From a virus: a stretch of 64,000 bases of DNA. Location: positions 1 to 64,000 of IMG/VR virus record IMGVR_UViG_3300045988_137804. One strand, written 5' to 3'. The notes beneath the pieces were generated by a model, which saw nothing but the letters and a program-made list of their open reading frames with translations, did no database searches and was not told the DNA's origin. This document shows positions 1-35,300 of the stretch, one piece after another; within the stretch, counting starts at the first letter, position 1, and every line of letters starts with the position of its first letter. A program made the translations under genes and the position numbers.

Positions 1-55
1 TCAAATTCACAGAAGTTTACCAGTTTCCAATCTTTTTTGAATGAATTTATGCTTT
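1..55. repeat. Left arm of a perfect 55-bp inverted repeat. It is the reverse complement of 185..239 and is cut by the window edge, so it may extend further left.
   Basis: Direct comparison: revcomp(185..239) equals 1..55 exactly. The match breaks at 56 and 184. Confidence 0.9.
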
Positions 56-167
56 TATCAGTATTCATAAAAATCCCTTATTTATAGGGGATTGCGCAAT
101 CTCTTTATTCTAGAATTTACCTGTTTTCACCTTTCTTAATTTTAAAAACTCCTCGCTTTCAAGGCAT

Positions 168-1679
168 TTGCAACTACCATGTGAAAGCATAAATTCATTC
201 AAAAAAGATTGGAAACTGGTAAACTTCTGTGAATTTGATAAGTATGCAACAAAATCATACTGTGCAATTCATGGTGTAGATGAATCATTGAATCTTGGTG
301 ATATTACAAAAGTTGATGAGACAAATCTTGAACAATTTAATATGATTTGTGGAGGTAGCCCGTGTCAGGATTTTTCTGTAGCAGGTAAACAAAAGGGTTC
401 TGTTTGGACTTGTAAAGAATGTGGACATGAATATAATCCATTAACAGTTCATTGGGCTGAACGTGATAAGTGTCCAAATTGCAACAGTGAAAATATTGAA
501 AAGACAAGATCATCATTACTTGTTGAATATTTAAGAGTTATCAGAGCAAATAAACCAAATTTTGGAATTTATGAGAATGTAAAGAACATTGTCGGTAGAC
601 AGTTTAAAGACACAACATTTAAATTGTTTACTGATGAGTTGGAAGAATACGGATATAACGTGTATTGGAAGGTGCTTAATGCAAAGAATTATGGTATTCC
701 ACAAAATAGGGAGCGTGTGTATCTGATTTTTATTAAGAAAGATTTGGATAATGGTAAGTTTAAATTTCCAGAACCATTTGATAATGGTGTTAGATTGAAA
801 GATTTATTGGAAGACGTTGTTGATCAAAAATATTATCTTAGCAAAGAAGTTCAAGATAGATTCAAGCTAACTGATGATACTTTTACAAAAAATATTATTG
901 GCACAACAAAACCAGAGTTTAGAACAATCGGTCAAAGAGATTTGGTATATCAGAAAGATTCCGTAATGGGTGCATTAGTAGCAATAGATTATAAGCAACC
1001 GAAACAGATTTTGGATAATGATATTAAAACAGTTGCAATTCCACAAGCCACCAAAAAAGGTTACATAGAATGTGAAATTGGTGGAGTTGCAGATTTATCA
1101 TATCCAGATTCTAAAACTAGACGTGGAAGAGTACAAGATGGTGGTAATATTTGTCCAACATTAACTGCTACAGAGACAGGTGTATGTAGAATCGAATCTG
1201 TTGAAGACAAGCCTAAAGAAAGATTTTTTAGACAAGCATTAGATACATTTGATGATTCCGATGCAGAATATGGAGATACAATTGATGCATTTAATAAAAG
1301 AGTAAATAAATCGGGCTGTTCACCTACATTAACGACAAGACCAGAAGGGTTTAAAACAGCTATTTTGCCAGTAACAAATAATTTACGAGTAAGAAAATTA
1401 ACTCCGAAAGAATGCTTTAGACTTATGGGATTTTCGGATGAAAATTTCAATGCAGCACATAATGCAGGTATTTCAAATTCGCAGTTGTATAAGCAAGCTG
1501 GAAATTCAATCGTGGTAGATGTTTTATATTACATATTTGTTGAGCTGTATAAAGCCATGCCATATCTTTTTGATGATTTAAAGTTAAGCAGTTTCTTCTC
1601 AGGAATCGGAGCATTTGAAGTGGCATTGGACAGATTATACAAAGGAATTAATTTTGGAAATTTTACAAATTCACATTAA
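168..1679 (+). CDS. DNA (cytosine-5)-methyltransferase of the Dcm/M.HhaI family. Motif order is permuted, with motif I at the C-terminus, and a zinc ribbon is inserted between motifs IV and VI.
   Basis: GGSPCQDFSVAG (motif IV, PCQ), ENV (motif VI), QNRERVY (motif VIII), RKLTPKECFRLMGF (IX) and QAGNSIVV (X) are all present. FFSGIGAFEVAL (motif I, FxGxG) comes last. The N-terminus NFCEFDKYATKSY aligns with the region that follows motif I in M.HhaI. There is a CxxC...CxxC insert. Confidence 0.85.
   Translation: MQLPCESINSFKKDWKLVNFCEFDKYATKSYCAIHGVDESLNLGDITKVDETNLEQFNMICGGSPCQDFSVAGKQKGSVWTCKECGHEYNPLTVHWAERDKCPNCNSENIEKTRSSLLVEYLRVIRANKPNFGIYENVKNIVGRQFKDTTFKLFTDELEEYGYNVYWKVLNAKNYGIPQNRERVYLIFIKKDLDNGKFKFPEPFDNGVRLKDLLEDVVDQKYYLSKEVQDRFKLTDDTFTKNIIGTTKPEFRTIGQRDLVYQKDSVMGALVAIDYKQPKQILDNDIKTVAIPQATKKGYIECEIGGVADLSYPDSKTRRGRVQDGGNICPTLTATETGVCRIESVEDKPKERFFRQALDTFDDSDAEYGDTIDAFNKRVNKSGCSPTLTTRPEGFKTAILPVTNNLRVRKLTPKECFRLMGFSDENFNAAHNAGISNSQLYKQAGNSIVVDVLYYIFVELYKAMPYLFDDLKLSSFFSGIGAFEVALDRLYKGINFGNFTNSH
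185..239. repeat. Right arm of the 55-bp inverted repeat. It lies inside the methyltransferase coding sequence, codons about 6-24.
   Basis: Same comparison. It encodes ESINSFKKDWKLVNFCEFD in the + frame. Confidence 0.9.
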
Positions 1680-1699
1680 GCGAAAGGAACTGTCTATAT

Positions 1700-1993
1700 A
1701 TGGATAATTATTGTCTTAAATATTCAATTTATATTTTTGACGAAGAAGGAAAACTTTATGATTTAGTACATTCTAAATTTGGAATAAAAATAATTATGCA
1801 TACGAAAGAGAAAGGTCATAAAGAACCACATGTGCATGTCAAGTACGAAAATAAAGAAGCAGTGCTAAGTTTGATAGATGGAAGATTTATGAAAGGAAAC
1901 ATACATCCAAACAAAAGGAAATATGCGGAAGAATGGGTAATGAATAACAAAGAGGAACTTCTAAAAAGGTATAAAGAAGTGATTGTTTTATGA
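1700..1993 (+). CDS. DUF4160-family protein
   Basis: Signature KEPHVHVKYENKEAVLSLIDG (the conserved xPHFHVxY core). It is followed by an ORF that overlaps by 4 bp. Confidence 0.6.
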   Translation: MDNYCLKYSIYIFDEEGKLYDLVHSKFGIKIIMHTKEKGHKEPHVHVKYENKEAVLSLIDGRFMKGNIHPNKRKYAEEWVMNNKEELLKRYKEVIVL

Positions 1994-2247
1994 ATCACAT
2001 AGAGAACACAATAGCTGTAAAATATGAAAACTTTAAGGAGAGAATAAACATTATGACGATTAAATTTATTAAAGATGTTGTCTTCAAAGACCAAAAAGAA
2101 GACAGTGTAAAGATTAAAAAAGGAAAGATTCTCACAGCAAAGGTTGTAAGAAACGAAGATGGTAAGGAAGAATATGAGATTACTCATAGGAAAAATACAT
2201 TCATGATTCCATCTTCTATGAAAGATGTAGTATTTGAGATTTTGTAA
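1990..2247 (+). CDS. Small protein, probably the DUF2442-like partner of the DUF4160 gene
   Basis: ATGA stop/start overlap with the upstream gene. Size and pairing are typical of the DUF4160/DUF2442 couple. Confidence 0.4.
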   Translation: MNHIENTIAVKYENFKERINIMTIKFIKDVVFKDQKEDSVKIKKGKILTAKVVRNEDGKEEYEITHRKNTFMIPSSMKDVVFEIL

Positions 2248-2309
2248 ATTTGTTCAGATTCTTTTGGAGAATAAGTAAGTATACAAATAATGATTGCGAG
2301 GTATATAAA

Positions 2310-2819
2310 ATGCTTAACAAAGAACAAAAGAATCTGGTGGAAGAAAATTATAATCTTACATATAAATATGCAAAAGATCACAAGTTGGATATGGAAGAAT
2401 TCAGTGGATTGCTTTCTATTGGTTTGTGTAAAGCTGCGTTAAATTACGATTCAGATAAAACAAAGTTCTCTACGTTTGCATACAGATGTATGGGAAATGA
2501 AGTAAGTAATTATCTGAGAAAAGTTAATGCAGGTAAATACTTGAGACATGATGAAGTATATTCCATGGAAGCATTGAATGAAAACGAGAATAGAGCTATA
2601 GAAGAGACATTTCTTATGACTTCATCGGAGAATATTGAGATAGACTATATGTTCAAGGCTAAGTTTCAGAAAGAATATGACAAGCTGAAAGACCAGGTTA
2701 AGAACATTGTTGCTCTCAAATATCATGGATACACAAACAATGAAGTTGCAGAAATTATGAATATAAAAGCATCTACTATAAGTATGGCTTTGAAAAAGTT
2801 CAAATATGCGCTGGTATAA
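2310..2819 (+). CDS. Sigma-70 family RNA polymerase sigma factor (phage-encoded)
   Basis: Region-2-like segment LVEENYNLTYKYAK...FSTFAYRCMGNEV and region-4 HTH ALKYHGYTNNEVAEIMNIKASTISMALKKF. GAGGT sits upstream of the ATG at 2310. The ORF frame is open from 2250. Confidence 0.7.
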   Translation: MLNKEQKNLVEENYNLTYKYAKDHKLDMEEFSGLLSIGLCKAALNYDSDKTKFSTFAYRCMGNEVSNYLRKVNAGKYLRHDEVYSMEALNENENRAIEETFLMTSSENIEIDYMFKAKFQKEYDKLKDQVKNIVALKYHGYTNNEVAEIMNIKASTISMALKKFKYALV

Positions 2820-2870
2820 ATGCTATATTATGAGATATATAGATAATATTGTGTGTTGCAATAAATCGTA

Positions 2871-2916
2871 ATACTACATGTAGTATATAAATATATCATC
2901 ACACACTATATATAGT
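2871..2916. promoter_or_regulatory. 16-bp perfect palindrome ATACTACATGTAGTAT (2871..2886) followed by the motif ACACACTATATATAGT (2901..2916). The same motif recurs at 11948..11963.
   Basis: Seen directly. The second copy overlaps a TTGACA -35 element. Confidence 0.5.
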
Positions 2917-2977
2917 ATTAAAATATAGATGAAATGCGAATTTCATTGGTGGAGAATATATAAGCGGAGGTGATAAC

Positions 2978-3502
2978 GTGGGAACAAATTATTACATGAT
3001 GATGAAGGACAAGGAACTTGCAATGAAGTATTTCGATAATGAGTACGAGCTTACAGATACTCCGTATTTTGGCTATGAAGTACATATCATGAAACTGAGT
3101 TATGGTTGGAAACCTTTATTTGAGTGGCATGGGAATGCGTATAAATCAGTAGAAGATATGCTAAAGTTCTTGGAATTTCATAGAATGGATATTGATATTT
3201 TTGACGAATATAATCGAGAATATACCATTGAAGAATTAAAAGAAGAGTTCGTAAGTCATAAAAATGTAAAACCAAGATATATGAAACATATTCCAGAAGG
3301 CATTCCGAATCATACATTTGGTGGTAGAGATTATTTAGCTGAGTCCACTGAGGATGATTATGACATTAAAATGCCATATGACCATGTAGAGTATCATAAA
3401 TTAGATCCTTACAATGAAAAAAGATGGATAGATGAAAGTAGAGAGCCATTATATTTTCACGATAAGGATGGTTATGATTTTACGAAAGGATGGTTCGAAT
3501 AA
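2978..3502 (+). CDS. hypothetical protein
   Basis: ORF with a GGAGGTG ribosome-binding site. No motif recognised. Confidence 0.5.
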   Translation: MGTNYYMMMKDKELAMKYFDNEYELTDTPYFGYEVHIMKLSYGWKPLFEWHGNAYKSVEDMLKFLEFHRMDIDIFDEYNREYTIEELKEEFVSHKNVKPRYMKHIPEGIPNHTFGGRDYLAESTEDDYDIKMPYDHVEYHKLDPYNEKRWIDESREPLYFHDKDGYDFTKGWFE

Positions 3503-3612
3503 TGAATAAACCAACATTATGGGTTATGGTTGGCTTGTCTGGAAGTGGTAAATCAAGTGTTGCAAAAGAAATCGCAGAGAATAATCCTAAGAAGGAGATG
3601 AATAACAAATAA
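3502..3612 (+). pseudogene. 36-codon remnant of a P-loop NTPase/kinase (Walker A GLSGSGKSS), truncated just upstream of the homing endonuclease
   Basis: MNKPTLWVMVGLSGSGKSSVAKEIAENNP then a stop. TAATG coupling to the upstream gene. No continuation was found downstream. Confidence 0.5.
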
Positions 3613-3641
3613 CAAAAAGAAAAATTTATTGTGGAATATAT

Positions 3642-3998
3642 ATGATACGCAATAAAATAAACGATAAAAAATATATAGGTCAAAGTATAGATATATGGTA
3701 TAGATATAGAAATCATTTGAGTGAATCATATAATGTAAACAAAAAAGCTTACAATATGGCAATTCATAAGGCGATAAGAAAATATGGTAAAAGTAATTTT
3801 GAATTAATTGTTTTAGAAGAATGTCCAAAAGAAAAATTAAATGAACGAGAAATTTATTGGATAGAATATTACGATACATACAATGATGGTTACAATCAAA
3901 CAATTGGTGGGGATACATTAAAAAATACAATTGATAGAGCAAATATATATATCGTCTGTGGGATGAAGGAAAATCTATTAAAGACATTCGTGAAATAA
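3642..3998 (+). mobile_element. GIY-YIG homing endonuclease, catalytic domain ORF
   Basis: KYIGQS...YRYRNH...NEREIYWIEYYDTYNDGYN, typical of the I-TevI-like GIY-YIG domain. Confidence 0.8.
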
Positions 3999-4477
3999 CT
4001 AAGCATGGAAAACATCAAATTATTCGTATTTTAGAAGGTTATGATAAATATTCACCTGAAGAAAGCAAGAGAAGAGGATTTTCGTCTGCTTCAAAGACTA
4101 GGGGCAAAACTGTGTATAGATATCAAATGAATGGTGAATATATAGATGAATTTTGGTCAATTGCTGAAGCCGGAAGAAAAACAGGAACAAGAAATACAGA
4201 TATAAGTTTATGCTTAAATGGTTCTCAACAATCTGCAAATAATTATAGATGGAGTTTTGAGAAAAAAGATAATATCGGAGAATACAAAGCGGAGATGGCA
4301 AACAAAAAGAAAGCAGTTATAAAATATGATGAGGACAATAATTTTATTGAAGAATTTGCATCAATTACAGATGCGGCGAAATCAGTAGGGCTAAAAGGTT
4401 TATCTGGAATAATAAAATCATGTGAAAAAGATGTTTTGTGCAAAGGGTATAAGTGGAAATATAAATATCAAATCTAA
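3938..4477 (+). pseudogene. C-terminal DNA-binding part of the same homing endonuclease (NUMOD-like HTH repeats), in the -1 frame relative to the catalytic ORF. The frame switch sits at a (TA)5 repeat, 3943..3952.
   Basis: Manual translation: frame 2 is open from 3938 (…YRLWDEGKSIKDIREITKHGKHQIIRILEGYD…) and continues into the listed ORF 4112..4477, which has two G..W/SI.EA..-type repeats. Confidence 0.6.
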
Positions 4478-4552
4478 GGAACGTTGGAAGAAAAGGTTTG
4501 GAGAATATAAATATCAGATGCTTTTGGATTTTCATGAATGTGATAAAGTGAG

Positions 4553-4909
4553 GTGAGATACATGAGATGTAATACAGATTTGGAGACTTGGCTGCATGAT
4601 TTCGAAGACGATATATTCCGTATCTTAGTTTACAGAAAGCCTGGTCAGTATACTCCATACGAAGTGGAGAATAAGTTTAGTGATGAGTCTTTATATGTAG
4701 ACAATGAATACAAGAAAGTATTTATTGAAGACGTAATTGAACTACCGGACAAAGATGTTCTGATTGGATTTAGAGAAGTTCTTGATGTGAATCAAAATAA
4801 AGACGGAGAATATGAATGTGAGTTGGCAGATAGCATTGAATATTATAAGCTTTCTGAAATTAAACTGGAATGTTTTAAATGTGATCAAGTGATTGGAGGT
4901 GAGTTCTAA
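4553..4909 (+). CDS. hypothetical protein
   Basis: ORF only. Confidence 0.4.
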   Translation: MRYMRCNTDLETWLHDFEDDIFRILVYRKPGQYTPYEVENKFSDESLYVDNEYKKVFIEDVIELPDKDVLIGFREVLDVNQNKDGEYECELADSIEYYKLSEIKLECFKCDQVIGGEF

Positions 4910-5169
4910 TGGATATTTTCCAAAACATTGTATTGATCTTCATGGGAGTATTGCTCTTAGGAATTTTGGTTGCATTTTCAATCCTATTAGAGAAGTTCAT
5001 GGAGCTGTCAGACGAAGTACATAAGAAACTCTTTGAAATGTCAGTAGAGAATAATACAAATGTAGATGATGGATTCATTCTTGGAGATGAGTTCTTGACA
5101 GAAGACGAATTGACAAATGAAAGCGATGAAGATTCAAGAGAAGAATTCGGAATTTATTCTGAACGATAA
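4909..5169 (+). CDS. Small membrane protein with an acidic C-terminus
   Basis: Hydrophobic N-terminal segment. TAATG overlap with the upstream gene. Confidence 0.4.
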   Translation: MDIFQNIVLIFMGVLLLGILVAFSILLEKFMELSDEVHKKLFEMSVENNTNVDDGFILGDEFLTEDELTNESDEDSREEFGIYSER

Positions 5170-5384
5170 AAGAGTAATAGTATTATGGTTATACGTCAGA
5201 TATGAGGACAAATTCTTGCCGTAATCGTTCAAGATTAACAATTGGATACTGAAAAATAAAGAACTGAATTTGCTCTATGTATATATCAAATAGTAAGCAA
5301 TATATGATGTATTTTTGGACTTAAATTAGCTTAATTAAACTAACTAATTTTTGTATAAATATTTAAAAAAGAGGAGAAAGAAAA

Positions 5385-6965
5385 ATGGTAAATGAGATTA
5401 TTAATGGACTTGGTGTTTTAGTTCCTGTAGTGATTGTAGGAGCAGGTGGAATTGGAATTGTTGGTTCTGGATATGTAAAAGCATCGCCAGATAAAGCCTA
5501 TATCATTTCTGGTTTAAGAAAAGATCCAAAAGTTCTTATTGGAAAAGCTGGGCTTAAGATTCCATTCTTTGAAAAGAAAGACGAGCTAAATCTTCAGTTA
5601 ATTCCAATTGATGTAAAAACATCAAGTGCAGTTCCAACAGCAGATTACATCAACATTAACGTTGATGCAGCAGTAAACGTAAAGGTAAGTAGCGACACAG
5701 AAAGACTTAAACTTGCAGCAGAGAACTTTCTTAATAAACCAACTGACTACATTGGACAGGTTGCAAGAGAAGTTCTTGAGGGTAATATGCGTGAGATTGT
5801 TGGCAAAATGAACTTGGAAGAAATGGTTTCCGATCGTCAGAAGTTTGCAGAACTCGTAAAAGAAAATGCCGAACCAGATCTTGCTGCAATGGGACTCGAC
5901 ATTGTGAGCTTCAATGTACAGAATTTTGTTGATGAAAATGGAGTAATTGAAAATCTTGGTGTTGACAACATTGTTAAAATTCAGAAAAATGCAGCTATTT
6001 CAAGAGCTGATAGCGAAAAAGAAATTGCCAAGGCTCGTGCTATGGCTAAAAAAGAAGCGAATGATGCAGAGGTAACTTCTGAATTGGAAATTGCAAATGC
6101 TCAGGCTGAAGCACAGAAGAAGAAAGCAATTGTACAGGCTAACGCAGATAGAGAGTCAAGAGAAGCTCAAATTGCAGCAGACACACTTATTGCACAGAAA
6201 GAAAATGAACTTGAAATTAAAAAAGCAGAACTTCAGAAAGATGCTGATACGAAAAAGGCTTCAGCAGATGCAGCTTATAGTATTCAGGAAGAAAATGAAA
6301 GAAAATCTGTGGAGATTGCTACGGCAGATGCTAATCTTGCTAAACAGGAAAAAGCTGTGGAGATTAAAGAGAAAGAGATTGCACTCACAGAAAAAACTCT
6401 TGAAGCTACTGTAAAGAAACAGGCTGAAGCAGAAAAATATGCAAAACAGCAGGAAGCAGATGCAAGACTGTATGAAACACAGAGAAAATCAGAAGCAAAT
6501 CTTTTTGAGAGACAGAAAAATGCTGAAGCAGAGAAGTTTGAACGTGAGAAAGAAGCTGAAGCTATGAAAGCAACAGCAGAAGCTAACAAATATGCTATGG
6601 AACAGGAAGCAGAAGGTATTCGTAGTAAAGGACAGGCTGAAGCCGATGCAATCAAAGCAAAAGCTCTTGCAGAAGCAGAAGGTATTCAGAAGAAAGCAGA
6701 AGCAATGAAACAGATGGGTGAAGCAGCAGTTCTTGATATGTATTTCAAAGCTATGCCAGAAATCGCCAAGAATATCGCAGAACCTCTTGCCAAAGTTGAC
6801 AAAATTACAATGTATGGAGATGGAAACTCTTCAAAATTGATGAAAGATATCATGAACACTCTTAATCAGGTTACAGATGGTATGAAAGAGTCAACTGGAA
6901 TCGACTTAAATTCTATTCTTGCAGGTTTTGCAGGTGCTAAAATTGCTGAATCTACAGACAAATAA
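5385..6965 (+). CDS. Flotillin-like SPFH/band-7 protein (FloA/YqiK type)
   Basis: An N-terminal transmembrane segment, an SPFH domain, then a long Ala/Glu/Lys-rich coiled coil. Strong ribosome-binding site AAAGAGGAG. GC content is visibly higher than in the flanks. Confidence 0.8.
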   Translation: MVNEIINGLGVLVPVVIVGAGGIGIVGSGYVKASPDKAYIISGLRKDPKVLIGKAGLKIPFFEKKDELNLQLIPIDVKTSSAVPTADYININVDAAVNVKVSSDTERLKLAAENFLNKPTDYIGQVAREVLEGNMREIVGKMNLEEMVSDRQKFAELVKENAEPDLAAMGLDIVSFNVQNFVDENGVIENLGVDNIVKIQKNAAISRADSEKEIAKARAMAKKEANDAEVTSELEIANAQAEAQKKKAIVQANADRESREAQIAADTLIAQKENELEIKKAELQKDADTKKASADAAYSIQEENERKSVEIATADANLAKQEKAVEIKEKEIALTEKTLEATVKKQAEAEKYAKQQEADARLYETQRKSEANLFERQKNAEAEKFEREKEAEAMKATAEANKYAMEQEAEGIRSKGQAEADAIKAKALAEAEGIQKKAEAMKQMGEAAVLDMYFKAMPEIAKNIAEPLAKVDKITMYGDGNSSKLMKDIMNTLNQVTDGMKESTGIDLNSILAGFAGAKIAESTDK

Positions 6966-6998
6966 TCTGTACATAGTTTAATTTTACACATTCCAACT

Positions 6999-7535
6999 TT
7001 GCATAGTGTCACAGCTATGCAGAGTATTTCTAAAAATAATATGAGAGGAAGTGATTGTGTGGTTAATTTAGAACCACGGATGATGCAAAAAGTACAAAAG
7101 TGTTTAGAAACACATGTTGGTGGTGAAGCATATTTTAATGAATTAGACGCTGCGATTAAATCAGATGAAAATCTTTTGAAGTCTTTCATTAATCGCATTG
7201 TCATAGAAACGAAGTGTCGCAACTTTGTAATGTCAGGTGAAATTGGTGTTGTATATTCTAAATTATATTCATACGATGACATTCATTTGTTGTTGCTGCC
7301 AGGTGGCTTGAGACACGATAAAGAAATTCCTTATGACATTGGGAGAATATATGAAGGAATGGAATTTGTATTCGTAGACGATTCATATTACTCAGGAAAA
7401 ACTTTGAATGCTGTGAAGAAATATATGGAATCTACTGGTGCAAAAATCATTGCAAATTATGTTTTCTACGATGGTAGCAGAGAAAATAAAGATAATGTGA
7501 GATCAATTTACAGATATTATGATCATCACGAATAA
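6999..7535 (+). CDS. Type I phosphoribosyltransferase-fold protein
   Basis: PRPP-binding motif EFVFVDDSYYSGKTL. The true start is uncertain; M candidates at 7043 and 7078. Confidence 0.6.
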   Translation: MHSVTAMQSISKNNMRGSDCVVNLEPRMMQKVQKCLETHVGGEAYFNELDAAIKSDENLLKSFINRIVIETKCRNFVMSGEIGVVYSKLYSYDDIHLLLLPGGLRHDKEIPYDIGRIYEGMEFVFVDDSYYSGKTLNAVKKYMESTGAKIIANYVFYDGSRENKDNVRSIYRYYDHHE

Positions 7536-7549
7536 GGAGAATAACATAT

Positions 7550-7747
7550 ATGGGAAGAAAATTCAGATGGTTGGATGCAATCAGGACAATGAATGTAAAT
7601 GATCTTGCACCATATTTAATAAAGGAATGTTTCAATTTTCATGATGGAACATGGTGGTCATCTCCAAGTGGTAATAAATTTGATTATCATGATGATGCTC
7701 TTGAAGATTGTATTCGGTGGTTAAATTCTAAATATGATGGGAGATAA
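7550..7747 (+). CDS. hypothetical protein
   Basis: ORF with a GGAGA ribosome-binding site. Confidence 0.35.
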   Translation: MGRKFRWLDAIRTMNVNDLAPYLIKECFNFHDGTWWSSPSGNKFDYHDDALEDCIRWLNSKYDGR

Positions 7748-7755
7748 TAATTATT

Positions 7756-8127
7756 ATGGGATGGTATGAAGAGTACAAGACTGATGAATATATAAAAAGT
7801 CTCCAGTCTGTAGTAGAAGGATTAAAAACAAAAGATAAGACAATTAATTCACTACAAGAAGAGAATAATAGATTGAGAGATGAACATTACAAGGATGGAG
7901 AGTTAAAGAAATTGCAAGAAAAAATTGATAAGTTGCAAGGCGACTGTAATAGAGGATTTCCAATTAGTTTCAATGAGCAAGAAGTGATTGATGAATTTCG
8001 AGAAGAACACAAGAAGGAATGTCCTCATTGTAGCTTCAAATACATATTTGAGCCTTATTCGATTGTTGAGTTTGGATATCTAAAATGCAATGTTTGTGGT
8101 GAAGAAATAAAATTTGCAGAACGGTGA
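7756..8127 (+). CDS. Coiled-coil protein with a C-terminal zinc ribbon (CPHC...CNVC)
   Basis: Seen in the translation. Confidence 0.4.
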   Translation: MGWYEEYKTDEYIKSLQSVVEGLKTKDKTINSLQEENNRLRDEHYKDGELKKLQEKIDKLQGDCNRGFPISFNEQEVIDEFREEHKKECPHCSFKYIFEPYSIVEFGYLKCNVCGEEIKFAER

Positions 8128-8169
8128 TGGAGAATAAGTAATTAAAGGTTATAGAAAGGAGTTTGTGAA

Positions 8170-8592
8170 ATGAGATTTTCTGAAGCAATCGAACATCTTC
8201 TTAACGGAGAACGCATAAAGGAAGCGTGTTGGGAAAATGGTTATTACATCAAGCTGGAAAACGACAAAATTGTGGATTGTGATGGATCAGCAGAAGTGTT
8301 CGATAGTAAAGACATTATATCTAACGATTGGGAGCTATATCAGCCTAAATTAGATGTAGGTGCGGTTATTCAATACAATGACGGTACAATCGGAATTGTG
8401 CTTAGTTTATCTGAACTAGATAAGGAATACATCATTTTAGATGAGAATTGGTGCGTAGAAACAGTGAATGAAAGCCAGGTTTCATTAATCAATATTGACT
8501 ATGGAAAAGTTAGTTTGCATGAAGATTCTGCGAGTAAAAATCTCAAAAGTATAGTTTTATCATTACAGATGATTTCAGAGTTAGTAAATTAA
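8170..8592 (+). CDS. DUF2829-like protein, a possible Tad2-type anti-Thoeris sponge homolog (tentative)
   Basis: N-terminus MRFSEAIEHLLNGERIKEACWENGYYI resembles the F-EAl--Lk-Gk-v-R-gW opening of DUF2829. Called from memory of that family only. Confidence 0.3.
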   Translation: MRFSEAIEHLLNGERIKEACWENGYYIKLENDKIVDCDGSAEVFDSKDIISNDWELYQPKLDVGAVIQYNDGTIGIVLSLSELDKEYIILDENWCVETVNESQVSLINIDYGKVSLHEDSASKNLKSIVLSLQMISELVN

Positions 8593-8666
8593 TGATTTTA
8601 TCCACTACGAAGTGGAGAATAAATAAGTATAAAGTTTAAGTTTCAAAGATTAAAGGAGAAAACATT

Positions 8667-9311
8667 ATGAGTACAATTGAGAAAATGAGTGTTCACAAAG
8701 CATTAGCAGAGTTAAAGATTATTGATTCCAGAATTGAGAGATCAATTGATGATGCACAGTTCTGTGTAGCAAACAAACATTCTAATGAAAAGATTAATGG
8801 TATTCCGGTTGAGGACGCTAAGAAGTTAATGGTTGGAAGTTACGACAAAGCATCAGATCTTATTAAGAGAAGAAATGCAATCAAGAGAGCAGTTGTGCTT
8901 TCTAATGCTAAGACAATTGTTACGATTGCAGACAGAGAATATACTGTTGCAGAAGCAATTGAGATGAAAAATCATGGCATTGAGTTTGAGGAATTTCTTT
9001 TAAATGAAATGAGATGTCAATACGCAGATGCTAATAGAACTATCTCAGCAGAGAATGGCGAAAAACTGAGTGAAAGAGCAGATAAATTTGTCATTGACAT
9101 GTATGGATCAAAAGAGGGTAAAACAAATACTGCTGATTTTGAGAAAGCAAAGAAAGATTTTATCACAGCAAATTCTTATGACTTGGTTGATCCACTTGAT
9201 ATCAAGAAGAAGATTGATGAATTGGAAGAATATATCTCAAACTTCAAGACAGAAGTAGATGCTGCATTAAGTGTTAGCAATGCTATTACAGAAACTACTG
9301 TAGAGTATTAG
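8667..9311 (+). CDS. hypothetical protein
   Basis: ORF with an AAAGGAGAA ribosome-binding site. Confidence 0.5.
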   Translation: MSTIEKMSVHKALAELKIIDSRIERSIDDAQFCVANKHSNEKINGIPVEDAKKLMVGSYDKASDLIKRRNAIKRAVVLSNAKTIVTIADREYTVAEAIEMKNHGIEFEEFLLNEMRCQYADANRTISAENGEKLSERADKFVIDMYGSKEGKTNTADFEKAKKDFITANSYDLVDPLDIKKKIDELEEYISNFKTEVDAALSVSNAITETTVEY

Positions 9312-9504
9312 AGAATATATAAATAGGAAATTATTTCACTGTTTGCTGAAAACTTAGAACTACAATCATTCAGACTTTTGCAAGTATAGCCTGAATCAAA
9401 ATAATAAAGAAGCTTGCAACATAATAAAACATAAAAAGCAAGTATAGCAAATTATTACAGGAATGCTTGATGCACAGTGTTGAGCGTTTATAAATTACAA
9501 GATG

Positions 9505-9605
9505 ACTGTAAAGAGTAAAGTTCAAATGTCAAGTAGTAAAGCTCAAAATTCAAAGATTATTTTTTATGTAAAGTTTAAGCAGTAAATAGTAAAGATATAA
9601 AGTTT
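9505..9605. repeat. Iteron-like cluster of about 6 (A/T)GTAAAG repeats and TTCAAA repeats in a non-coding region upstream of the tRNA cluster
   Basis: Seen: tgtaaagagtaaagttcaaatgtcaagtagtaaagctcaaaattcaaag…tgtaaagtttaagcagtaaatagtaaagatataaag. Confidence 0.5.
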
Positions 9606-9744
9606 TATAAAATCTTCGACAAACAGTTTTCAGTATGATTGTACTTGGCTGTAAGTTGTCTGCGAAGCTAGTAAATGGTGAATTAATTAATAAATGTCAA
9701 CCTACATAATAATATGCATAGTTGTCGTGAGGGTTGGCAAATAT

Positions 9745-9833
9745 GGATCATTACATCAACTGGTAAGATGAGCTGCCTCATAAGCAGAAAGCCCTAATAA
9801 GGTATAAACTGGGTTCGACTCCCAGATGATCCA
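9745..9833 (+). tRNA. tRNA-like gene with class-II architecture (about 20-nt variable arm) and anticodon CAU. Identity is atypical or unknown.
   Basis: Hand fold: acceptor ggatcat/atgatcc; D-stem catc/gatg; anticodon stem gctgc/gcaga with loop ctCATaa; T-arm ctggg-ttcgact-cccag; discriminator A. Confidence 0.5.
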
Positions 9834-9969
9834 CTGTATCTGAATATTCACAGAATGTGTTATTCGTTTCCTTTCTTTCTATGAACATTCTAGTTCAGAT
9901 ACAATGTTTTTCATAACTTCCTTTTGTTTGGTTGGCAACTTACCATATAGACAAAAAAGTTGCAATAAT

Positions 9970-10038
9970 GGGCTGTGGTGTAATGGTAGCACATAATACT
10001 TTGACTATTATAGATCCAGTTCAAATCTGGACAGCCTA
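9970..10038 (+). tRNA. tRNA-Gln (anticodon UUG)
   Basis: Hand fold: acceptor gggctgt/acagcct (G1·U72); anticodon stem taata/tatta with loop ctTTGac; T-arm ccag-ttcaaat-ctgg. Confidence 0.7.
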
Positions 10039-10124
10039 GCTTGTGAGATTTTGGAACGTCTCACAAATATTACTCCTTTCATGGGTTATTTATAGTGCAA
10101 AAGATGTGCAGAAATGCACATCGA

Positions 10125-10210
10125 GCTGGCATGGCGGAATTGGTAGACGCAATGGACTTAAAATCCATCGGTAAAAACACACCATACGAGTTCGAGTCTC
10201 GTTGCCAGTA
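10125..10210 (+). tRNA. tRNA-Leu (anticodon UAA), class II
   Basis: D-arm tggcggaattggtagacgc is identical to the bacterial tRNA-Leu consensus. Anticodon stem atgga/tccat with loop ctTAAaa. Long variable arm. T-arm acgag-ttcgagt-ctcgt. Acceptor gctggca/tgccagt. Confidence 0.8.
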
Positions 10211-10367
10211 TTAGCCATATGAGACACTTATTCCCTGAGCAAGAATGATGAAGTCGGTACAAAAGTGCTCAATTTCTGTATTTTACATTCGTGTGTTATG
10301 CAAGCAGCACGAATGACATATGGCATTAACCCCCAACATAGGGTATTTACATTTTACAAAAATGGTT

Positions 10368-10437
10368 TGGCTGTTAGTTCAGTGGGAAGAACATCTATTG
10401 CAAGAGAGGGTCACAGGTTCGAGTCCTGTACAGTCAA
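10368..10437 (+). tRNA. tRNA-like element, probably degenerate. Acceptor, D-arm and T-arm are canonical but no regular anticodon arm can be drawn.
   Basis: Acceptor tggctgt/acagtca; D-arm gttc-agtgggaa-gaac; T-arm acagg-ttcgagt-cctgt. The middle segment contains the self-complementary TTGCAA. Confidence 0.35.
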
Positions 10438-10505
10438 CTTGACGCAGAAAACATTTGATTTTTGCATTCATGTTTTGCACGCCTCATTTCTTCAATGTGC
10501 AAAGT

Positions 10506-10627
10506 AGATTGTTAGTTCATTGGTAGAATATCTTATTGAAAAATAATGTAATCCTGTTCTTTTCGCTTTCTTAACGATGTGATGCATTATTAATAGGAAG
10601 AAACACGTTCGAATCGTGTGCAATCTA
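10506..10627 (+). other. Split or interrupted tRNA-like structure. Acceptor/D-arm at 10506..10530 and T-arm/acceptor at 10603..10627, separated by about 70 nt. A cttatt/aatagg stem encloses a 54-nt insertion.
   Basis: Hand pairing of agattgt with gcaatct. T-arm acacg-ttcgaat-cgtgt. Confidence 0.3.
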
Positions 10628-10714
10628 TCAGTCTTGGTTGACTTACCACTTTCAAACGAGGACTTTAAATTCGGTAGTAAAGTGGAGAATAATAATCATA
10701 GGTGGTGAAAAATT

Positions 10715-11056
10715 ATGAGATGTCCGTATTGTGACAAAGAAATGATTAAGAAGTACAAGATTAAGCACTTCTGTAATTTCGATGATCCGTGTGACTCATG
10801 GGAAAAAGAAATACATATCTGTAAGAAGTGTGGTATCAAGAAAGTAGATGGCAAGTGGAAGATTCCACATAAGTACAGAAGACCATCAACTAATCAGATT
10901 CGCAGATGCAAGACTTTAGCTAAGATACACGACATAGATTTTGAGCCACTTCTTGCCAGACAATGCAAGAGATTCATCACAACAATGCTGAAAAAGTTAT
11001 ATGTTCAGGATCATTATTGTGATGGAGAACTCCATATCATTGGAGAGAATAAATAA
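10715..11056 (+). CDS. Cys-rich zinc-finger protein, hypothetical
   Basis: CPYC...C..C...CKKC motifs. Confidence 0.45.
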   Translation: MRCPYCDKEMIKKYKIKHFCNFDDPCDSWEKEIHICKKCGIKKVDGKWKIPHKYRRPSTNQIRRCKTLAKIHDIDFEPLLARQCKRFITTMLKKLYVQDHYCDGELHIIGENK

Positions 11057-11074
11057 GAAAAGGAGATAAGAAAC

Positions 11075-11314
11075 ATGACAAGAGAAGAAAGAATGCAGAA
11101 AAGAAGAGACGCAGGTAAGGTTTATACTTACAAGAAAAATCCTTACGAGAAAGGAACTAAAGAGTGGGTTAAGGAAGAATGTGCGAGAGCAGAGAAAAGA
11201 AAATCCAAGAAACCACATTACGCTAAGATGACTTCTGTGTTTGCCAAGTTAGATAATGAGCTTGCAAAGGCTGAACTTGCTGCAAAGAAGAAGTCTAAAA
11301 AAGAGGGTAAGTAA
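11075..11314 (+). CDS. Small basic protein, hypothetical
   Basis: Lys/Arg-rich ORF with a GGAGA ribosome-binding site. Confidence 0.4.
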   Translation: MTREERMQKRRDAGKVYTYKKNPYEKGTKEWVKEECARAEKRKSKKPHYAKMTSVFAKLDNELAKAELAAKKKSKKEGK

Positions 11315-11551
11315 ATGAGAGAAACTTTATTTTGGATTACCATTATCGTTGGAATCGGACTTGGTATTTACACTGGTGGTTGGTTGTTATTTATTAAACC
11401 GATTATTGTTGCATGTGCTGCATATGACGCAGGGACACTTACAGGAAGTATGATTGGATGGACAATTATCAAATGTTTGGTGTTTGCACCAATTGTTGCA
11501 AGAGTAATTATAAATGTTACACTTACGATTGCAGGAGATATTTTGGATTAA
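11315..11551 (+). CDS. Small membrane protein
   Basis: Two hydrophobic segments. Confidence 0.4.
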   Translation: MRETLFWITIIVGIGLGIYTGGWLLFIKPIIVACAAYDAGTLTGSMIGWTIIKCLVFAPIVARVIINVTLTIAGDILD

Positions 11552-11572
11552 TTTCAATAGGAGAACAAACCA

Positions 11573-11848
11573 ATGATAGAGATTATCGAAACTAATCTTG
11601 CTATAGATGAGAATAAAGATATTAGAGATCATCAGTCTAGAGTAGTTCTTGCAGATGATTGGGAGTCTTATTGCGAAGCATATGAAAAGTATGACGGATC
11701 AAGAGTGACATTTCCATCAAAGAGTCCTGGTGCTAGTATCTATGAAGACAGTAAAATAGAAGATTTAGAATATGACGAGTATCATTTGCATTGCAGAATT
11801 AATAAAGTATATTTTACAGATACAAGATTGGCATACAAAATCAGTTAA
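11573..11848 (+). CDS. hypothetical protein
   Basis: ORF with a GGAGAA ribosome-binding site. Confidence 0.4.
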   Translation: MIEIIETNLAIDENKDIRDHQSRVVLADDWESYCEAYEKYDGSRVTFPSKSPGASIYEDSKIEDLEYDEYHLHCRINKVYFTDTRLAYKIS

Positions 11849-11943
11849 TCACTTTTGAGCAATTCGCTCACAATTTCAAATCAAAATTGAATAGAGAATA
11901 TAAATTTAGAGGTTGCACAGCGTACCTTTGGTTTCTTGTAAAA

Positions 11944-11972
11944 TTGACACACTATATATAGTGTTTATAAAT
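11944..11972 (+). promoter_or_regulatory. Candidate sigma-A-type promoter (TTGACA, 16-17 bp, TATAAA). The 14-bp perfect palindrome CACTATATATAGTG lies in the spacer, as an operator would.
   Basis: Seen directly. It shares the 16-nt motif ACACACTATATATAGT with 2901..2916. Confidence 0.5.
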
Positions 11973-12133
11973 AATATAAATACAATATATTGACATAAAA
12001 ACACCATAAAATCGCTGTTTCATATAGATTTTTGCATAAATTTATTTTTGTGTTCCGTCCGGTTGGGCGTTTAGATAGATTGTTTTATTAACAATATTTA
12101 CATAAATTTTTTATTTTTAAGGAGGATTTTCTG

Positions 12134-32385: not shown

Positions 32386-35300
32386 ATGGTAAGAGTTATT
32401 AAAAGAGATTGCTCTGAAGTTGATTTTGATAAGAATAAAATTTCAACGGCAATCTTAAAGGCTATGAAAAATGGTAGCGGAATTGTTAAACCCAAAATTG
32501 CGGAATCTATTGCAGATGAGATTGAAAAGGAATGTAAGGATCGAGAAGAGATTGATATTTCTGAAATTGAAGCAATGGTATTTGACAAGCTGATTACCAA
32601 AAAACAGAGACTTACTGCAAGAGCATATGAAGGTTATAGAAGTACAAGAGAATTCCAGAGAGAGAATGAGAATACTGTTGACGAGGAAATTCTTGGAATT
32701 GTAGAAGCAAACAACGAAGAATGGAAAGATGAAAATGCGAATAAAAATCCAGCATTAAACCCTACAATTCGTGATTATATTGCTGGATCTGTAAGTAAAG
32801 ACGCAACAAAAAGATTTTTATTATCTCCAGAAATTATTCAGAGTCATTTAGAAGGAATTATTCATTTCCATGATTCAGATTACTTTATTCAACATATGCA
32901 TAACTGCGGATTAGTAAATCTTGAAGATATGCTTCAGAATGGTACTGTTATTAGTGAAACAATGATTGAAAAGCCACATAGTTTTTCTACAGCATGTACC
33001 GTGACTACTCAGATCATTGCTCAAGTTGCATCTAGTCAGTATGGTGGACAGAGTATCTCACTTGCACATCTGGCACCGTTTGTGGATGTTTCCAGAGAGA
33101 AGATCCGTAAGGAAGTGATCAGCGAGCAGGAACTGGTCGGAATGGAATATCCGGAAGATGTGCTCAATGAGATCGTAGAGAGAAGACTGAAAAAAGAGAT
33201 TACAAAAGGTGTTCAAACAATTCAGTACCAGTTAATCACACTTATGACAACAAATGGGCAAGCACCGTTCATCACAATTTTTATGTATCTGAATGAAGCA
33301 AAGAATGAGAGAGAAAAGAAAGACCTAGCGATGTTAATTGAAGAAATGTTACTTCAGAGAAAACTTGGTGTGAAAAATGAAGATGGTGTTTATATTGCAC
33401 CAGCATTTCCAAAACTCATTTATGTTCTTGAGGATGACAATTGTAACGAATCAACAGAATATTGGTATTTAACAGAACTTGCTGCCGAATGCACGTCAAA
33501 AAGATTAGTTCCAGATTACATCTCTGAAAAAGTAATGAAAGAACTTAAAGGTGATGTGTATACATGCATGGGATGTGTTGATGGAAAAGAACTTGTTACA
33601 TATACATATAACAATAATCTTTACGTTGAATCATTTGAAAGAATGTGGAATAGACTTTCTGATAGATTTGAAATAAAACATCAGTATAATGACAACAACC
33701 CAAATCTATATATGGATTTGAGCGATGTAGAAATCTATGACACAGACAAAGGATTTGTTAATACAGAGAGAATAATCAGAAATATATCAACCTCTTGGCT
33801 TGATGTTAATTTTTCCAACGGAAGAAGATTACTTTGTACAGAAGATCACCCACTTACATTAAGAGATGGAAGAACAATCCATGCATCTGAATTAAAATTA
33901 AAGGATAGAATTCTCATTAATTCACATCAGTATAATGAAGAAAATATTGTATTCAATGAAGACAAGGCGTGGTTGTTAGGTTTTATGCTTTGTGATGGAT
34001 GTTATCAAGGCTCTTTATTTTCTTCAATTGCAGCAGAAAATGAAGATGAAATTGCAGATAAGTTTTCAGAAACAATGAAGAAATATTTTGATCTCGATAT
34101 TGAAAAAAAATTACAGCAAAGAGGTAAGAAAGGAACATATTACGATTTGATTGCACATAGTCAGAATGAAAAAATATCTGTGTATTGTAATTATTTCGCT
34201 AAAAAATTCGAAGGTCTGAATAAGATTGATAGACATGTTCCTAATGAAGTATTTTCATGGAATTATTCGTCAAAACTTGCTTTCCTGGCAGGAATGATTG
34301 ATGCAGATGGGTACATTAATAGTTCTCAGAATAAAGGATTTTCTATAGTTCAAATTGGTTCTACAAACAAAGAACTTGCATTACAACAAATGGCACTTGC
34401 ACAGTCTTTAGGTATGCCAGCAAAGCTGTACCATAACCATTACAGTAAACGTAACCCAGAATTGATTAGATACAGAGTTGAGTTTTATCCAACAGATGAA
34501 CTAATTAATTATATTGTATGTAAAAAGAAATATGATAATTATATTGATTCAAATGTATCTAGTTATAATCATGAATCTGAAGTTACTGAAATCAACAAAA
34601 TTAATAAAAAAATGTTTTCTTACGATGTAACAACAACAAGTGAGCATTTTGAAATTAGCGGAATCTATAGTCATAATTGTAGGTCTTTTTTAACTGTTGA
34701 TAGATTTTCTGATAAAGTTGGAAACATTTCTAACGCTAAAAACTTTAATGGAAAACATAAATATTACGGAAGATTTAATCAGGGTGTTGTTACAATTAAT
34801 CTTCCAGATATTGCATTTTCATCTGATGGCGACATGGATAAGTTTTGGGGAATTTTCGAAGAAAGAACAGAATTATGCCATAAGGCTTTAAAGGCTAGAC
34901 ATAACCGTTTGCTTAAAACTTCTTCTGATATTGCACCAATCCTGTGGCAGAACGGAGCATATGCAAGACTTAAAAAACATGAACCAATTGACAAACTTTT
35001 ATTTGATGGATATTCAACGATTTCTCTTGGATATGCAGGACTTTATGAGTGTGTGAAATATATGACAGGAAAATCCCATACAGATGGTGATGTAGGAGAA
35101 AAGTTTGGATTGGAAGTAATGCAAGCATTAAATGATAAATGTAATCAGTGGAAAGAAGCTGAAAACATTGATTATAGTTTGTATGGCAGCCCAATCGAAA
35201 GCACTACGTATAAATTTGCAAAGTGCTTAAAAAATAGATTCGGTGATGATATTTTTATTAAACTTGATGGATTTGATAGAAATTATATTACAAATAGTTA

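What the first reader, a model, noticed from the sequence alone, without database searches (positions are those of the whole stretch)
1..239. 55-bp perfect inverted repeat across the methyltransferase 5' coding region, at the window edge: invertible switch or foldback
Positions 1..55 are the exact reverse complement of 185..239. That stretch is codons about 6-24 of the methyltransferase, and the match probably continues left of the window. The 129-bp unique spacer (56..184) carries the only ATG plus five codons (MQLPC). On the - strand the left copy reads straight through SINSFKKDWKLVNFCEFD but is preceded by TAA and has no start codon. Recombination between the arms would move the start and any promoter from the rightward methyltransferase onto a leftward methyltransferase-like gene. 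That is a Campylobacter sapA-style promoter/5'-exon flip between two methyltransferase variants. The trivial alternative is an assembly foldback chimera at a contig end.
Basis: partly seen in the sequence, partly recalled or inferred. Interest (0 to 1): 0.6.

Follow-up and report, generated by a model that had tools for sequence, protein, structure and literature searches.

The report
Invertible on/off switch for phage methyltransferase
The 55-base mirror repeat is an assembly artefact, but it was created by a real 128-base DNA segment that flips to switch a gut-phage DNA-methylating enzyme on or off, a switch I could not find described for phage DNA-modification genes.

Summary
Its length is not biological. 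A 99.98%-identical genome (LR756492.1) has the same 128-bp spacer. Left of it lies the 3' end of a co-directional methyltransferase, with only a 9-bp inverted repeat. A k=55 test shows that window 1-238 is a chimeric graph path. It needs both orientations of the spacer in the sample. An independent SPAdes contig, 100% identical, ends at the predicted branch k-mer.

The biology underneath is real. The spacer is an inverton carrying a Shine-Dalgarno hairpin, an ATG and five codons (MNTDK). In relatives it occurs in both orientations, between identical flanks, inside long contigs. At least five subfamilies show this, each with its own 9-13-bp repeats. The same cassette precedes three other DNA-modification genes. 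Two adjacent switches show all four state combinations.

There is no divergent second methyltransferase, so the sapA-style model fails. This is an ON/OFF switch, OFF in the window. The invertase is unidentified. I found no prior description in the papers I searched.

The parts
1..46 (.). Artefactual part of the left arm (reverse complement of 193-238). It is not part of the phage genome at this position.
   Evidence: It is absent from L130, which is 99.98% identical from position 38 on. 55-mers starting at 2-46 exist only on the reverse strand of the flipped-state genome.
47..55 (.). True left inverted-repeat core, TTATGCTTT (9 nt).
   Evidence: The OFF-forward and ON-reverse paths agree for exactly 9 nt to the left of the spacer. 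The same core is seen in L130, L002, L019 and L082.
56..183 (-). Invertible 128-bp segment (inverton), in the OFF orientation in the window. Its expression signals read on the minus strand.
   Evidence: It is found in both orientations between conserved flanks in relatives.
155..188 (-). Compound stem-loop at the promoter-distal end: GCTTTCA...TGAAAGC enclosing a GTTGCAAA-loop hairpin, followed by a T-run. It resembles a terminator or insulator.
   Evidence: A terminator-like site at 164-151 was found by the scan. Equivalent stems occur in other subfamilies, some followed directly by T-runs.
107..135 (-). Conserved box GAAAGG-N17-TAGAAT. I presume it is a promoter with a non-canonical -35, but this is not shown.
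   Evidence: It occurs once in the window. It is conserved in all subfamilies and in the non-invertible bacterial copies. No consensus sigma-70 promoter scored.
90..101 (.). Perfect 12-nt palindrome GATTGCGCAATC, possibly an operator.
   Evidence: It is unique in the window. Other subfamilies have different sequences at this position that are nearly always perfect palindromes, such as AGTTGTACAACT, GTGTGTACACAC, GCTTGTACAAGC and GGTTACGTAACC.
72..93 (-). Hairpin AATCCC/GGGATT whose 3' arm holds the Shine-Dalgarno-like AAGGGA (79-74).
   Evidence: 47 of 48 distinct leaders have a hairpin here. Mean MFE is -6.8 against -2.5 kcal/mol for shuffles, with 33 distinct stem sequences.
54..68 (-). Start codon ATG (68-66) plus codons for MNTDK. 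This is the true N-terminus of the methyltransferase when the segment is flipped.
   Evidence: Translation. In the ON state in L019 and L082 it reads MNTDKSIN... into the gene.
184..192 (.). True right inverted-repeat core AAAGCATAA, inside the coding region.
168..1679 (+). C5 cytosine methyltransferase gene, shown here in the OFF state: a TTG start with no good Shine-Dalgarno sequence. The enzyme is circularly permuted, with motif I (FSGIGAFEVAL) at the C-terminus.
   Evidence: Pfam PF00145, E = 4.4e-59. HhaI aligns only from its residue 39, and residues 402-487 align to plant DRM enzymes across the motif X-to-I junction. Non-permuted relatives L244 and L245 have motif I at the N-terminus.

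Best explanation
Window 47-192 is an inverton. A 128-bp segment is bounded by a 9-bp inverted repeat (TTATGCTTT / AAAGCATAA). On one strand it carries a terminator-like stem-loop, a conserved promoter-like box, a 12-nt palindrome, a Shine-Dalgarno hairpin, an ATG and the first five codons (MNTDK) of the methyltransferase. The right repeat lies inside the coding sequence. In the ON orientation the gene is completed as MNTDK-SINSFKKDW.... In the OFF orientation, as in the window, the gene has no proper start, and the flipped ATG reads into a 16-aa dead end, antisense to the upstream gene. The assembled sample contained both states. A k=55 de Bruijn assembler entered the segment along the reverse strand of ON molecules and left it along OFF molecules. 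It stopped where the path would have traversed its own reverse complement. That stop produced a contig end with a perfect 55-nt foldback. What is shown: both orientations exist, the exact boundaries, the coding consequence, and the k-mer composition. What is inferred: the promoter, switching within a clone, catalysis by a site-specific recombinase (unidentified), and the benefit. My proposed benefit is bet-hedging of phage DNA methylation against hosts with either classical or methylation-dependent restriction.
For: Artefact. L130 (LR756492.1) is 99.98% identical over window 38-11993, yet left of the spacer it has the 3' end of a 308-aa methyltransferase. In the k-mer test, window 55-mers starting at 2-46 occur only in the ON genome (reverse strand), and those at 139-183 only in the OFF genome. 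Window 1-55 is the reverse complement of the first 55-mer common to both states. SPAdes contig NODE_6_length_160806 (L132), 100% identical, ends at 138, which is the last 55-mer shared by the two paths.

Real inversion. L002 has the window's orientation, while L019 and L082 are flipped, all deep inside contigs of 92-175 kb. L030, L032 and L033 compared with L031 and L034 have identical flanks and an exactly reverse-complemented middle, between the 12-bp repeats TATTTTTTTCTT / AAGAAAAAAATA. Genomes in opposite states are up to 99.5% identical over 7.7 kb. At least five subfamilies, each with different repeats, are seen in both states. An ORF-based call gives about 68 ON and 9 OFF.

Generality. 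The same cassette sits before the upstream 308-aa methyltransferase, and the pair shows all four state combinations. It also sits before a 252-aa B-type methyltransferase-like gene (C5 motif IV-like PPCTH, no Pfam hit) and a PAPS-reductase-domain gene, the latter also seen in both states.
Against: No reads were available, so coexistence of both states in one sample is inferred from contig-end k-mers, not observed directly. I cannot verify that window position 1 is a contig end, or that the assembler used k=55. No invertase was found in the window. None was found from about -33 kb to +72 kb in the window's subgroup. No sigma-70-type promoter scores in the segment. The repeats are short (9-13 bp) and AT-rich.
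Confidence: 0.85

Rival explanations
1. One reading: the repeat is truly 55 bp or longer, because a second, divergently oriented methyltransferase-like gene lies left of the window. Inversion would swap the promoter and start between the two genes (sapA-style).
For: The minus strand reads MNTDKSINSFKKDWKLVNFCEF in frame off the window edge. The arm is perfect for 55 nt.
Against: The 99.98%-identical genome L130 and relatives L002, L019 and L082 all have a co-directional gene's 3' end at that position. The arm length equals the graph k-mer exactly, and the arm starts exactly where the ON and OFF states converge. In none of about 80 related loci is a divergent copy seen.
Confidence: 0.03
2. A pure technical foldback, such as an amplification or library chimera or an assembler error, with no underlying biology.
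For: The repeat sits at the very edge of the window and its arm length equals a common default k. Foldbacks at contig ends are common.
Against: Both orientations occur deep inside many long contigs from different samples, with repeats far shorter than any assembly k-mer. The assembler therefore had no freedom to choose the orientation. The 128-nt unique loop with exact functional boundaries is not what a template-switch chimera predicts.
Confidence: 0.04
3. The inversions are real but not programmed. They would be rare accidental events at short AT-rich inverted repeats (replication template switching) that became fixed in different strains, with no dedicated recombinase and no regulatory role.
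For: The repeats are only 9-13 bp. No invertase was found near the element in the window's subgroup. Most assemblies, about 85%, are ON.
Against: Repeats are kept at the same two positions in at least five diverged subfamilies, although their sequences differ. They are also kept at three other genes. The flip always joins or removes exactly the Shine-Dalgarno sequence, start codon and first codons. Near-identical genomes differ in state. Two adjacent switches show all four combinations. Two independent assemblies of one strain break at the element as expected for a mixed population. Bacterial copies of the same leader lack the repeats and are always ON.
Confidence: 0.08

Closest known systems
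E. coli fimS switch (FimB/FimE tyrosine recombinases)
   Same: A short invertible segment, bounded by 9-bp inverted repeats, carries the expression signals for the adjacent gene and gives ON/OFF phase variation (my own knowledge).
   Different: fimS is 314 bp, lies wholly upstream of fimA, carries only a promoter and has its recombinase genes adjacent. Here the segment is 128 bp, the right repeat is inside the coding region, the segment supplies the start codon and five codons, the element is in a phage, and no adjacent recombinase was found.
Gut-bacterial invertons, including 'partial intergenic' and intragenic invertons (PhaseFinder studies; PMC10028968)
   Same: Short repeats flank a flippable regulatory segment. 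One repeat lies in the coding sequence, so the flip changes the gene's 5' end. They are detected as two orientations in metagenomes.
   Different: Those were described in bacterial chromosomes, mostly for surface structures. This is a conserved, portable cassette repeated before several DNA-modification genes of a roughly 160-kb phage lineage.
Phase-variable methyltransferases: phasevarions and Type I hsdS 'epigenetic invertons' (PMC7672463, PMC7394358, PMC11741434)
   Same: Stochastic switching of DNA methylation by a genetic switch.
   Different: Known cases are bacterial. They act through repeat-tract slippage or by shuffling hsdS specificity domains. Here orphan C5 methyltransferases and a PAPS-reductase-like gene of a phage are turned ON or OFF by flipping the promoter and start cassette.
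Phage Mu Gin / P1 Cin tail-fibre inversion systems (Van de Putte & Goosen 1992, cited in PMC13501310)
   Same: Programmed DNA inversion encoded in phage genomes.
   Different: Those invert segments of several kb that swap tail-fibre C-termini. They use an adjacent serine invertase, 26-bp sites and a Fis enhancer. No serine recombinase was found here, and the target is DNA modification, not host range.
Campylobacter fetus sapA promoter inversion
   Same: An invertible segment carrying expression signals.
   Different: sapA needs two oppositely oriented homologous genes sharing long conserved 5' regions. No second gene exists here.
k-mer-length terminal repeats in de Bruijn assemblies
   Same: A repeat whose length equals the assembly k at a contig end marks a graph vertex, not biology.
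   Different: The usual case is a direct repeat marking a circular path. Here it is an inverted foldback produced by a two-state inverton.

Membership tests
Inverton (invertible expression switch, fimS-like) | Segment bounded by inverted repeats | tested here: met
   9-bp core at 47-55 / 184-192. Repeats of 9-13 bp at the same positions in other subfamilies.
Inverton (invertible expression switch, fimS-like) | Both orientations occur in nature between unchanged flanks | tested here: met
   L002 vs L019/L082; L030/L032/L033 vs L031/L034; L017 vs L018; L020 vs L042; L059 vs L063; L333 vs L305.
Inverton (invertible expression switch, fimS-like) | Orientation decides expression of the adjacent gene | tested here: met
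   At the level of sequence logic. ON joins the Shine-Dalgarno sequence, ATG and five codons in frame to the gene. OFF leaves a TTG with no good Shine-Dalgarno sequence (window) or an in-frame TAA (L030), and a 16-aa dead end on the other side. Expression itself was not measured.
Inverton (invertible expression switch, fimS-like) | Segment carries a promoter | tested here: inconclusive
   A conserved GAAAGG-N15-17-TAGNAT box is present, but no sigma-70 consensus scores and the box is unique in the window.
Inverton (invertible expression switch, fimS-like) | A site-specific recombinase catalyses the flip | tested here: inconclusive
   None in the window. None from -33 kb to +72 kb in the window's subgroup. 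Tyrosine recombinases of three types lie 7-14 kb upstream in other subgroups. Two of them are widespread, with 170 and 112 relatives. No functional link is shown.
Inverton (invertible expression switch, fimS-like) | Reversible switching within one population | not testable with these tools
   No reads were available. It is inferred from contig-end k-mers in two assemblies of one strain.
sapA-type promoter flip between two homologous genes | Two oppositely oriented homologous genes flank the invertible segment | tested here: not met
   The left flank is the 3' end of a co-directional gene in L130, L002, L019 and L082.
Assembly (de Bruijn) foldback artefact | Arm length equals k, the arm sits at a contig end, and its outer part is absent from the same genome assembled elsewhere | tested here: met
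   That the window edge is a contig end is inferred. An independent SPAdes contig of the same strain ends 137 nt away.
Hin/Gin/Cin serine-invertase system | Adjacent serine invertase gene | tested here: not met
   No resolvase-family hit in the window or in relatives' flanks.
Hairpin telomere of a linear phage | Palindrome at the physical end with little or no unique loop | tested here: not met
   The loop is 128 nt and unique. The same sequence is internal in L130.
Phasevarion (phase-variable methyltransferase regulon) | ON/OFF methyltransferase that changes expression of other genes | not tested
   Only the ON/OFF architecture is shown. No methylome or expression data exist.

The most novel reading that the evidence does not exclude
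A lineage of roughly 150-160-kb gut phages, probably infecting Lachnospiraceae, carries a portable 'modification inverton' cassette. Copies of it independently switch several DNA-modification genes ON and OFF: two or three kinds of C5 methyltransferase and a PAPS-reductase-like enzyme. A phage population would then produce virions with combinatorially different DNA-modification patterns. That would be bet-hedging against hosts armed with either classical or modification-dependent restriction. The flips would be made by a recombinase that is not adjacent and may be non-canonical or host-encoded, since repeats differ between loci of one genome apart from a short ATRAAA core.
Probability: 0.45. 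Interest if true: 0.8.

Novelty: new variant of a known kind. Interest (0 to 1): 0.68.

Why it matters
Phase variation is regarded as a cellular bet-hedging strategy. In phages, programmed inversion is known mainly for tail-fibre (host-range) switching. A conserved multi-copy inverton that toggles phage DNA-modification genes would mean that phages also hedge their epigenetic defence against restriction systems. The idea is directly testable with existing metagenomic reads, by measuring orientation ratios at three loci, and with methylation-aware long reads.

It also has a practical side. These elements break short-read assemblies and leave k-length foldbacks at contig ends. Such foldbacks could be misread as inverted terminal repeats or as genome termini. 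Finally, the switched enzyme appears to be a natural C5 methyltransferase permuted between motifs I and II. A 2018 survey of REBASE did not find that topology among natural enzymes (PMC5944983).

Tried and rejected
- **Hairpin telomere:** rejected. The loop is 128 nt and unique, and the region is internal in L130.
- **Known RNA family in the leader:** no Rfam match at E <= 1.
- **Consensus RNA structure from a MAFFT alignment:** RNAalifold gave none, because the short variable stems were not in register. I replaced it with a per-sequence hairpin test.
- **Palindrome or promoter-like box as a general phage motif:** both are unique in the 64-kb window.
- **Palindrome as the methyltransferase's own target, tracking enzyme type:** not supported. 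The same palindrome precedes unrelated enzymes (AGTTGTACAACT in L004 and L088; GATTGCGCAATC in the window and L082). Near-identical 308-aa enzymes have different palindromes.
- **Small FimB-sized tyrosine recombinase (L038/L065) as the universal invertase:** found in only 14 contigs, none from the window's subgroup.
- **Serine invertases:** none found.
- **Match in cultured or deposited phage records:** none for window 1-2300. The polymerase's nearest cultured relative has only about 34% identity.

Full report
**1. The observation**

The window begins with a perfect inverted repeat. Arms 1-55 and 184-238 are 55/55 complementary and are separated by 128 nt. The 55-mer occurs nowhere else in the window, and none is expected by chance.

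- The minus strand has an ATG at 68-66 that reads MNTDKSINSFKKDWKLVNFCEF off the left edge.
- The plus-strand ORF (168-1679, 503 aa) starts at TTG, not ATG.

The ORF is a C5 cytosine methyltransferase (PF00145, E = 4.4e-59).

**2. What lies left of the spacer in the same genome**

Exact-protein look-ups found two records of essentially the same phage.
- L130 (NCBI LR756492.1, 204.6 kb) is 99.98% identical to window 38-11993. It contains the identical spacer in the same orientation. Left of the spacer it reads ...gttgaaaaaatagtgaagaaATTATGCTTT, which is the 3' end of a co-directional 308-aa C5 methyltransferase. Only 9 nt (TTATGCTTT / AAAGCATAA) are truly inverted-repeated.
- L132 (ENA ERZ1748977, SPAdes NODE_6_length_160806) is 100% identical to window 138-11993, and its contig end falls at window position 138.

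**3. Why the arm is exactly 55 nt**

I used L130 as the OFF genome and made an ON genome by flipping its spacer in silico. I then classified every 55-mer of window 1-300.

| Window 55-mers starting at | Where they exist |
|---|---|
| 2-46 | Only on the reverse strand of the ON genome |
| 47-138 | Shared by OFF-forward and ON-reverse |
| 139-183 | Only in the OFF genome |
| 184 onward | In both states |

Window 1-55 is the reverse complement of the first 55-mer common to the two states (184-238). NODE_6 ends at the last 55-mer shared by the OFF-forward and ON-reverse paths (138-192).

Both contig ends therefore coincide with the branch vertices of a k=55 graph built from a mixture of the two states. 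The window's first 238 nt are a chimeric walk: in along ON molecules (reverse strand) and out along OFF molecules. The walk stopped where it would have traversed its own reverse complement. That the window edge is a contig end, and that k was 55, are inferences.

**4. The inversion is real**

Relatives of the methyltransferase in IMG/VR (206 hits) carry the element deep inside long contigs. Their repeats are far shorter than any assembly k-mer, so the orientation in each contig is dictated by reads.
- In the window's own subgroup, L002 has the window's orientation, whereas L019 and L082 are flipped.
- In another subgroup, L030, L032 and L033 have flanks identical to L031 and L034. The middle is exactly reverse-complemented between the 12-bp repeats TATTTTTTTCTT / AAGAAAAAAATA.
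- At least five subfamilies, each with different repeat sequences at the same two positions, are seen in both states.
- Genomes in opposite states can be 99.5% identical over 7.7 kb of flank (L032 vs L040).
- Calling a cassette ON when its start codon opens an ORF of at least 150 aa gives about 68 ON and 9 OFF distinct contexts.

**5. Anatomy and consequence**

Read in the ON direction, the segment contains these parts in order:
- The left repeat.
- A compound stem-loop. In several subfamilies a T-run follows it directly, so it resembles a terminator.
- A conserved GAAAGG-N15-17-TAGNAT box.
- A palindrome of 10-14 nt, perfect in nearly all leaders, whose sequence differs between subfamilies.
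- A hairpin whose 3' arm holds the Shine-Dalgarno sequence. It is present in 47 of 48 distinct leaders, with 33 different stems. Mean MFE is -6.8 against -2.5 kcal/mol for shuffles.
- A start codon and about five codons (M-x-x-E/D-N-K).
- The right repeat, inside the coding region.

In the ON state this yields MNTDKSINLFKKDWELVNFCEFD... in L019. In the OFF state the gene keeps only a TTG without a good Shine-Dalgarno sequence (window), or an in-frame TAA (L030). The flipped ATG then reads a 16-aa dead end, antisense to the upstream gene.

The promoter is presumed, not shown. No sigma-70 consensus scores. No Rfam family matches.

**6. A cassette dedicated to DNA-modification genes**

The same architecture precedes three other genes:
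- The upstream 308-aa methyltransferase, just outside the window, with perfect 12-bp repeats TTTTTCTTTCAT / ATGAAAGAAAAA.
- A 252-aa B-type methyltransferase-like gene (C5 motif IV-like PPCTH, no Pfam hit) in L001/L082 and L088.
- A PAPS-reductase-domain gene (PF01507, E = 1.3e-9), caught ON in 20 loci and OFF in 2. L333 against L305 is a clean flip.

For the upstream and downstream methyltransferase switches, all four state combinations occur, so they flip independently.

| Locus | Upstream switch | Downstream switch |
|---|---|---|
| L019, L003 | ON | ON |
| L130 | ON | OFF |
| L082 | OFF | ON |
| L002 | OFF | OFF |

The surrounding region also encodes a D12 N6-adenine methyltransferase and a Lar-like restriction-alleviation protein.

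Homologues of the permuted methyltransferase occur in Lachnospiraceae and other Clostridia genomes. They have the same leader (palindrome GTGTAGCTACAC) but no flanking repeats, and they are always ON. The leader therefore looks ancestral, and invertibility was added in the large phages. This also points to the likely hosts.

**7. The invertase is not identified**

- No recombinase family appears among the Pfam hits for the window's genes.
- None was found in relatives of the window's subgroup from about -33 kb to +72 kb.
- In other subgroups, three types of tyrosine recombinase lie 7-14 kb upstream. One is sporadic, in 14 contigs. Two are widespread, with 170 and 112 relatives.
- No link to the switch is shown, and the window-subgroup contigs are not in the truncated hit lists.
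- Right-hand repeats of different loci share only an ATRAAA core.
- About 55 kb of the genome remained out of reach.

**8. Comparison with known systems, and novelty**

The element works like fimS and like the gut-bacterial invertons, especially the 'partial intergenic' class, in which one repeat lies in the coding sequence (PMC10028968). It is not a sapA-type system, because the defining second gene is absent. It is not a Gin/Cin system, because there is no serine invertase.

Phase-variable methyltransferases are known in bacteria. They work through repeat slippage or hsdS shuffling (PMC7672463, PMC7394358).

Full-text searches found no description of invertons controlling phage DNA-modification genes. 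The nearest is a 2026 methods paper that only 'suggests potential viral invertons', with 16 candidates and a Microviridae capsid example (PMC13501310).

I rate this a new variant of a known kind. The phage itself is uncultured. Its polymerase is about 34% identical to that of Brevibacillus phage Sundance.

**9. Verdict**

- As described, the 55-bp repeat is an assembly artefact.
- The underlying suspicion of an invertible switch is right. It leads to a conserved, multi-copy phage inverton family for DNA-modification genes.
- Confidence in the combined explanation is 0.85. The main gaps are read-level proof of mixed states, the promoter and the recombinase.

Noticed in passing
window 168-1679 (+): The C5 methyltransferase is circularly permuted between motifs I and II. 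It starts just before motif II and carries motif I (FSGIGAFEVAL) at its C-terminus. HhaI aligns only from its residue 39, and residues 402-487 align to plant DRM enzymes. Non-permuted relatives L244 and L245 have motif I at the N-terminus. A 2018 REBASE survey found natural permuted C5 enzymes only with breakpoints in the variable region (PMC5944983). The enzyme also has a zinc-ribbon insertion at about aa 81-112.
   Followed up: partly
L130 ~7296-7426 (about 1 kb left of window position 1): A second inverton of the same design sits at the start of the upstream 308-aa C5 methyltransferase. It has perfect 12-bp repeats and flips independently of the first.
   Followed up: yes
window 39853-44318 (+): Three consecutive genes have Pfam hits HTH_TnsB/Mu-transpos_C, TniB/AAA_22 and TniQ. 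This is a Tn7/Tn5053-like transposition module inside a phage genome.
   Followed up: no
window 32386-35730 (+): The anaerobic ribonucleotide reductase NrdD is interrupted by an intein with a LAGLIDADG homing endonuclease.
   Followed up: no
window 3642-4477 (+): A GIY-YIG/NUMOD homing-endonuclease gene is split into two ORFs in the window (118 and 121 aa) but is intact (277 aa) in relative L001.
   Followed up: no
window 2310-2819 (+): A small sigma-70-like factor (regions 2 and 4) lies three genes downstream of the switch and is conserved in relatives. It could read the unusual promoter-like box in the cassette. This was not tested.
   Followed up: no
L019 ~8940-8960: In L019 the upstream switch is ON, but the 308-aa methyltransferase ORF is frameshifted in an A-run inside the right repeat (A4 instead of A5). 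This is either a sequencing error or a second, slippage-type switch.
   Followed up: no
L145 10608-12077 (+): A 490-aa ORF with a weak HTH_OrfB_IS605 (TnpB-like) hit lies about 13 kb upstream of the methyltransferases in contig IMGVR_UViG_3300045988_126192.
   Followed up: no
L130 / L132 records: The same phage is deposited as a 204.6-kb record (LR756492.1) and assembled as a 160.8-kb SPAdes contig (NODE_6). The 44-kb difference is unexplained. It could be a concatemer or over-extension, or a real difference.
   Followed up: no
window 44379-45524 (-): A lysin with an Amidase_2 domain plus choline-binding repeats is consistent with a Gram-positive (Firmicutes) host.
   Followed up: no
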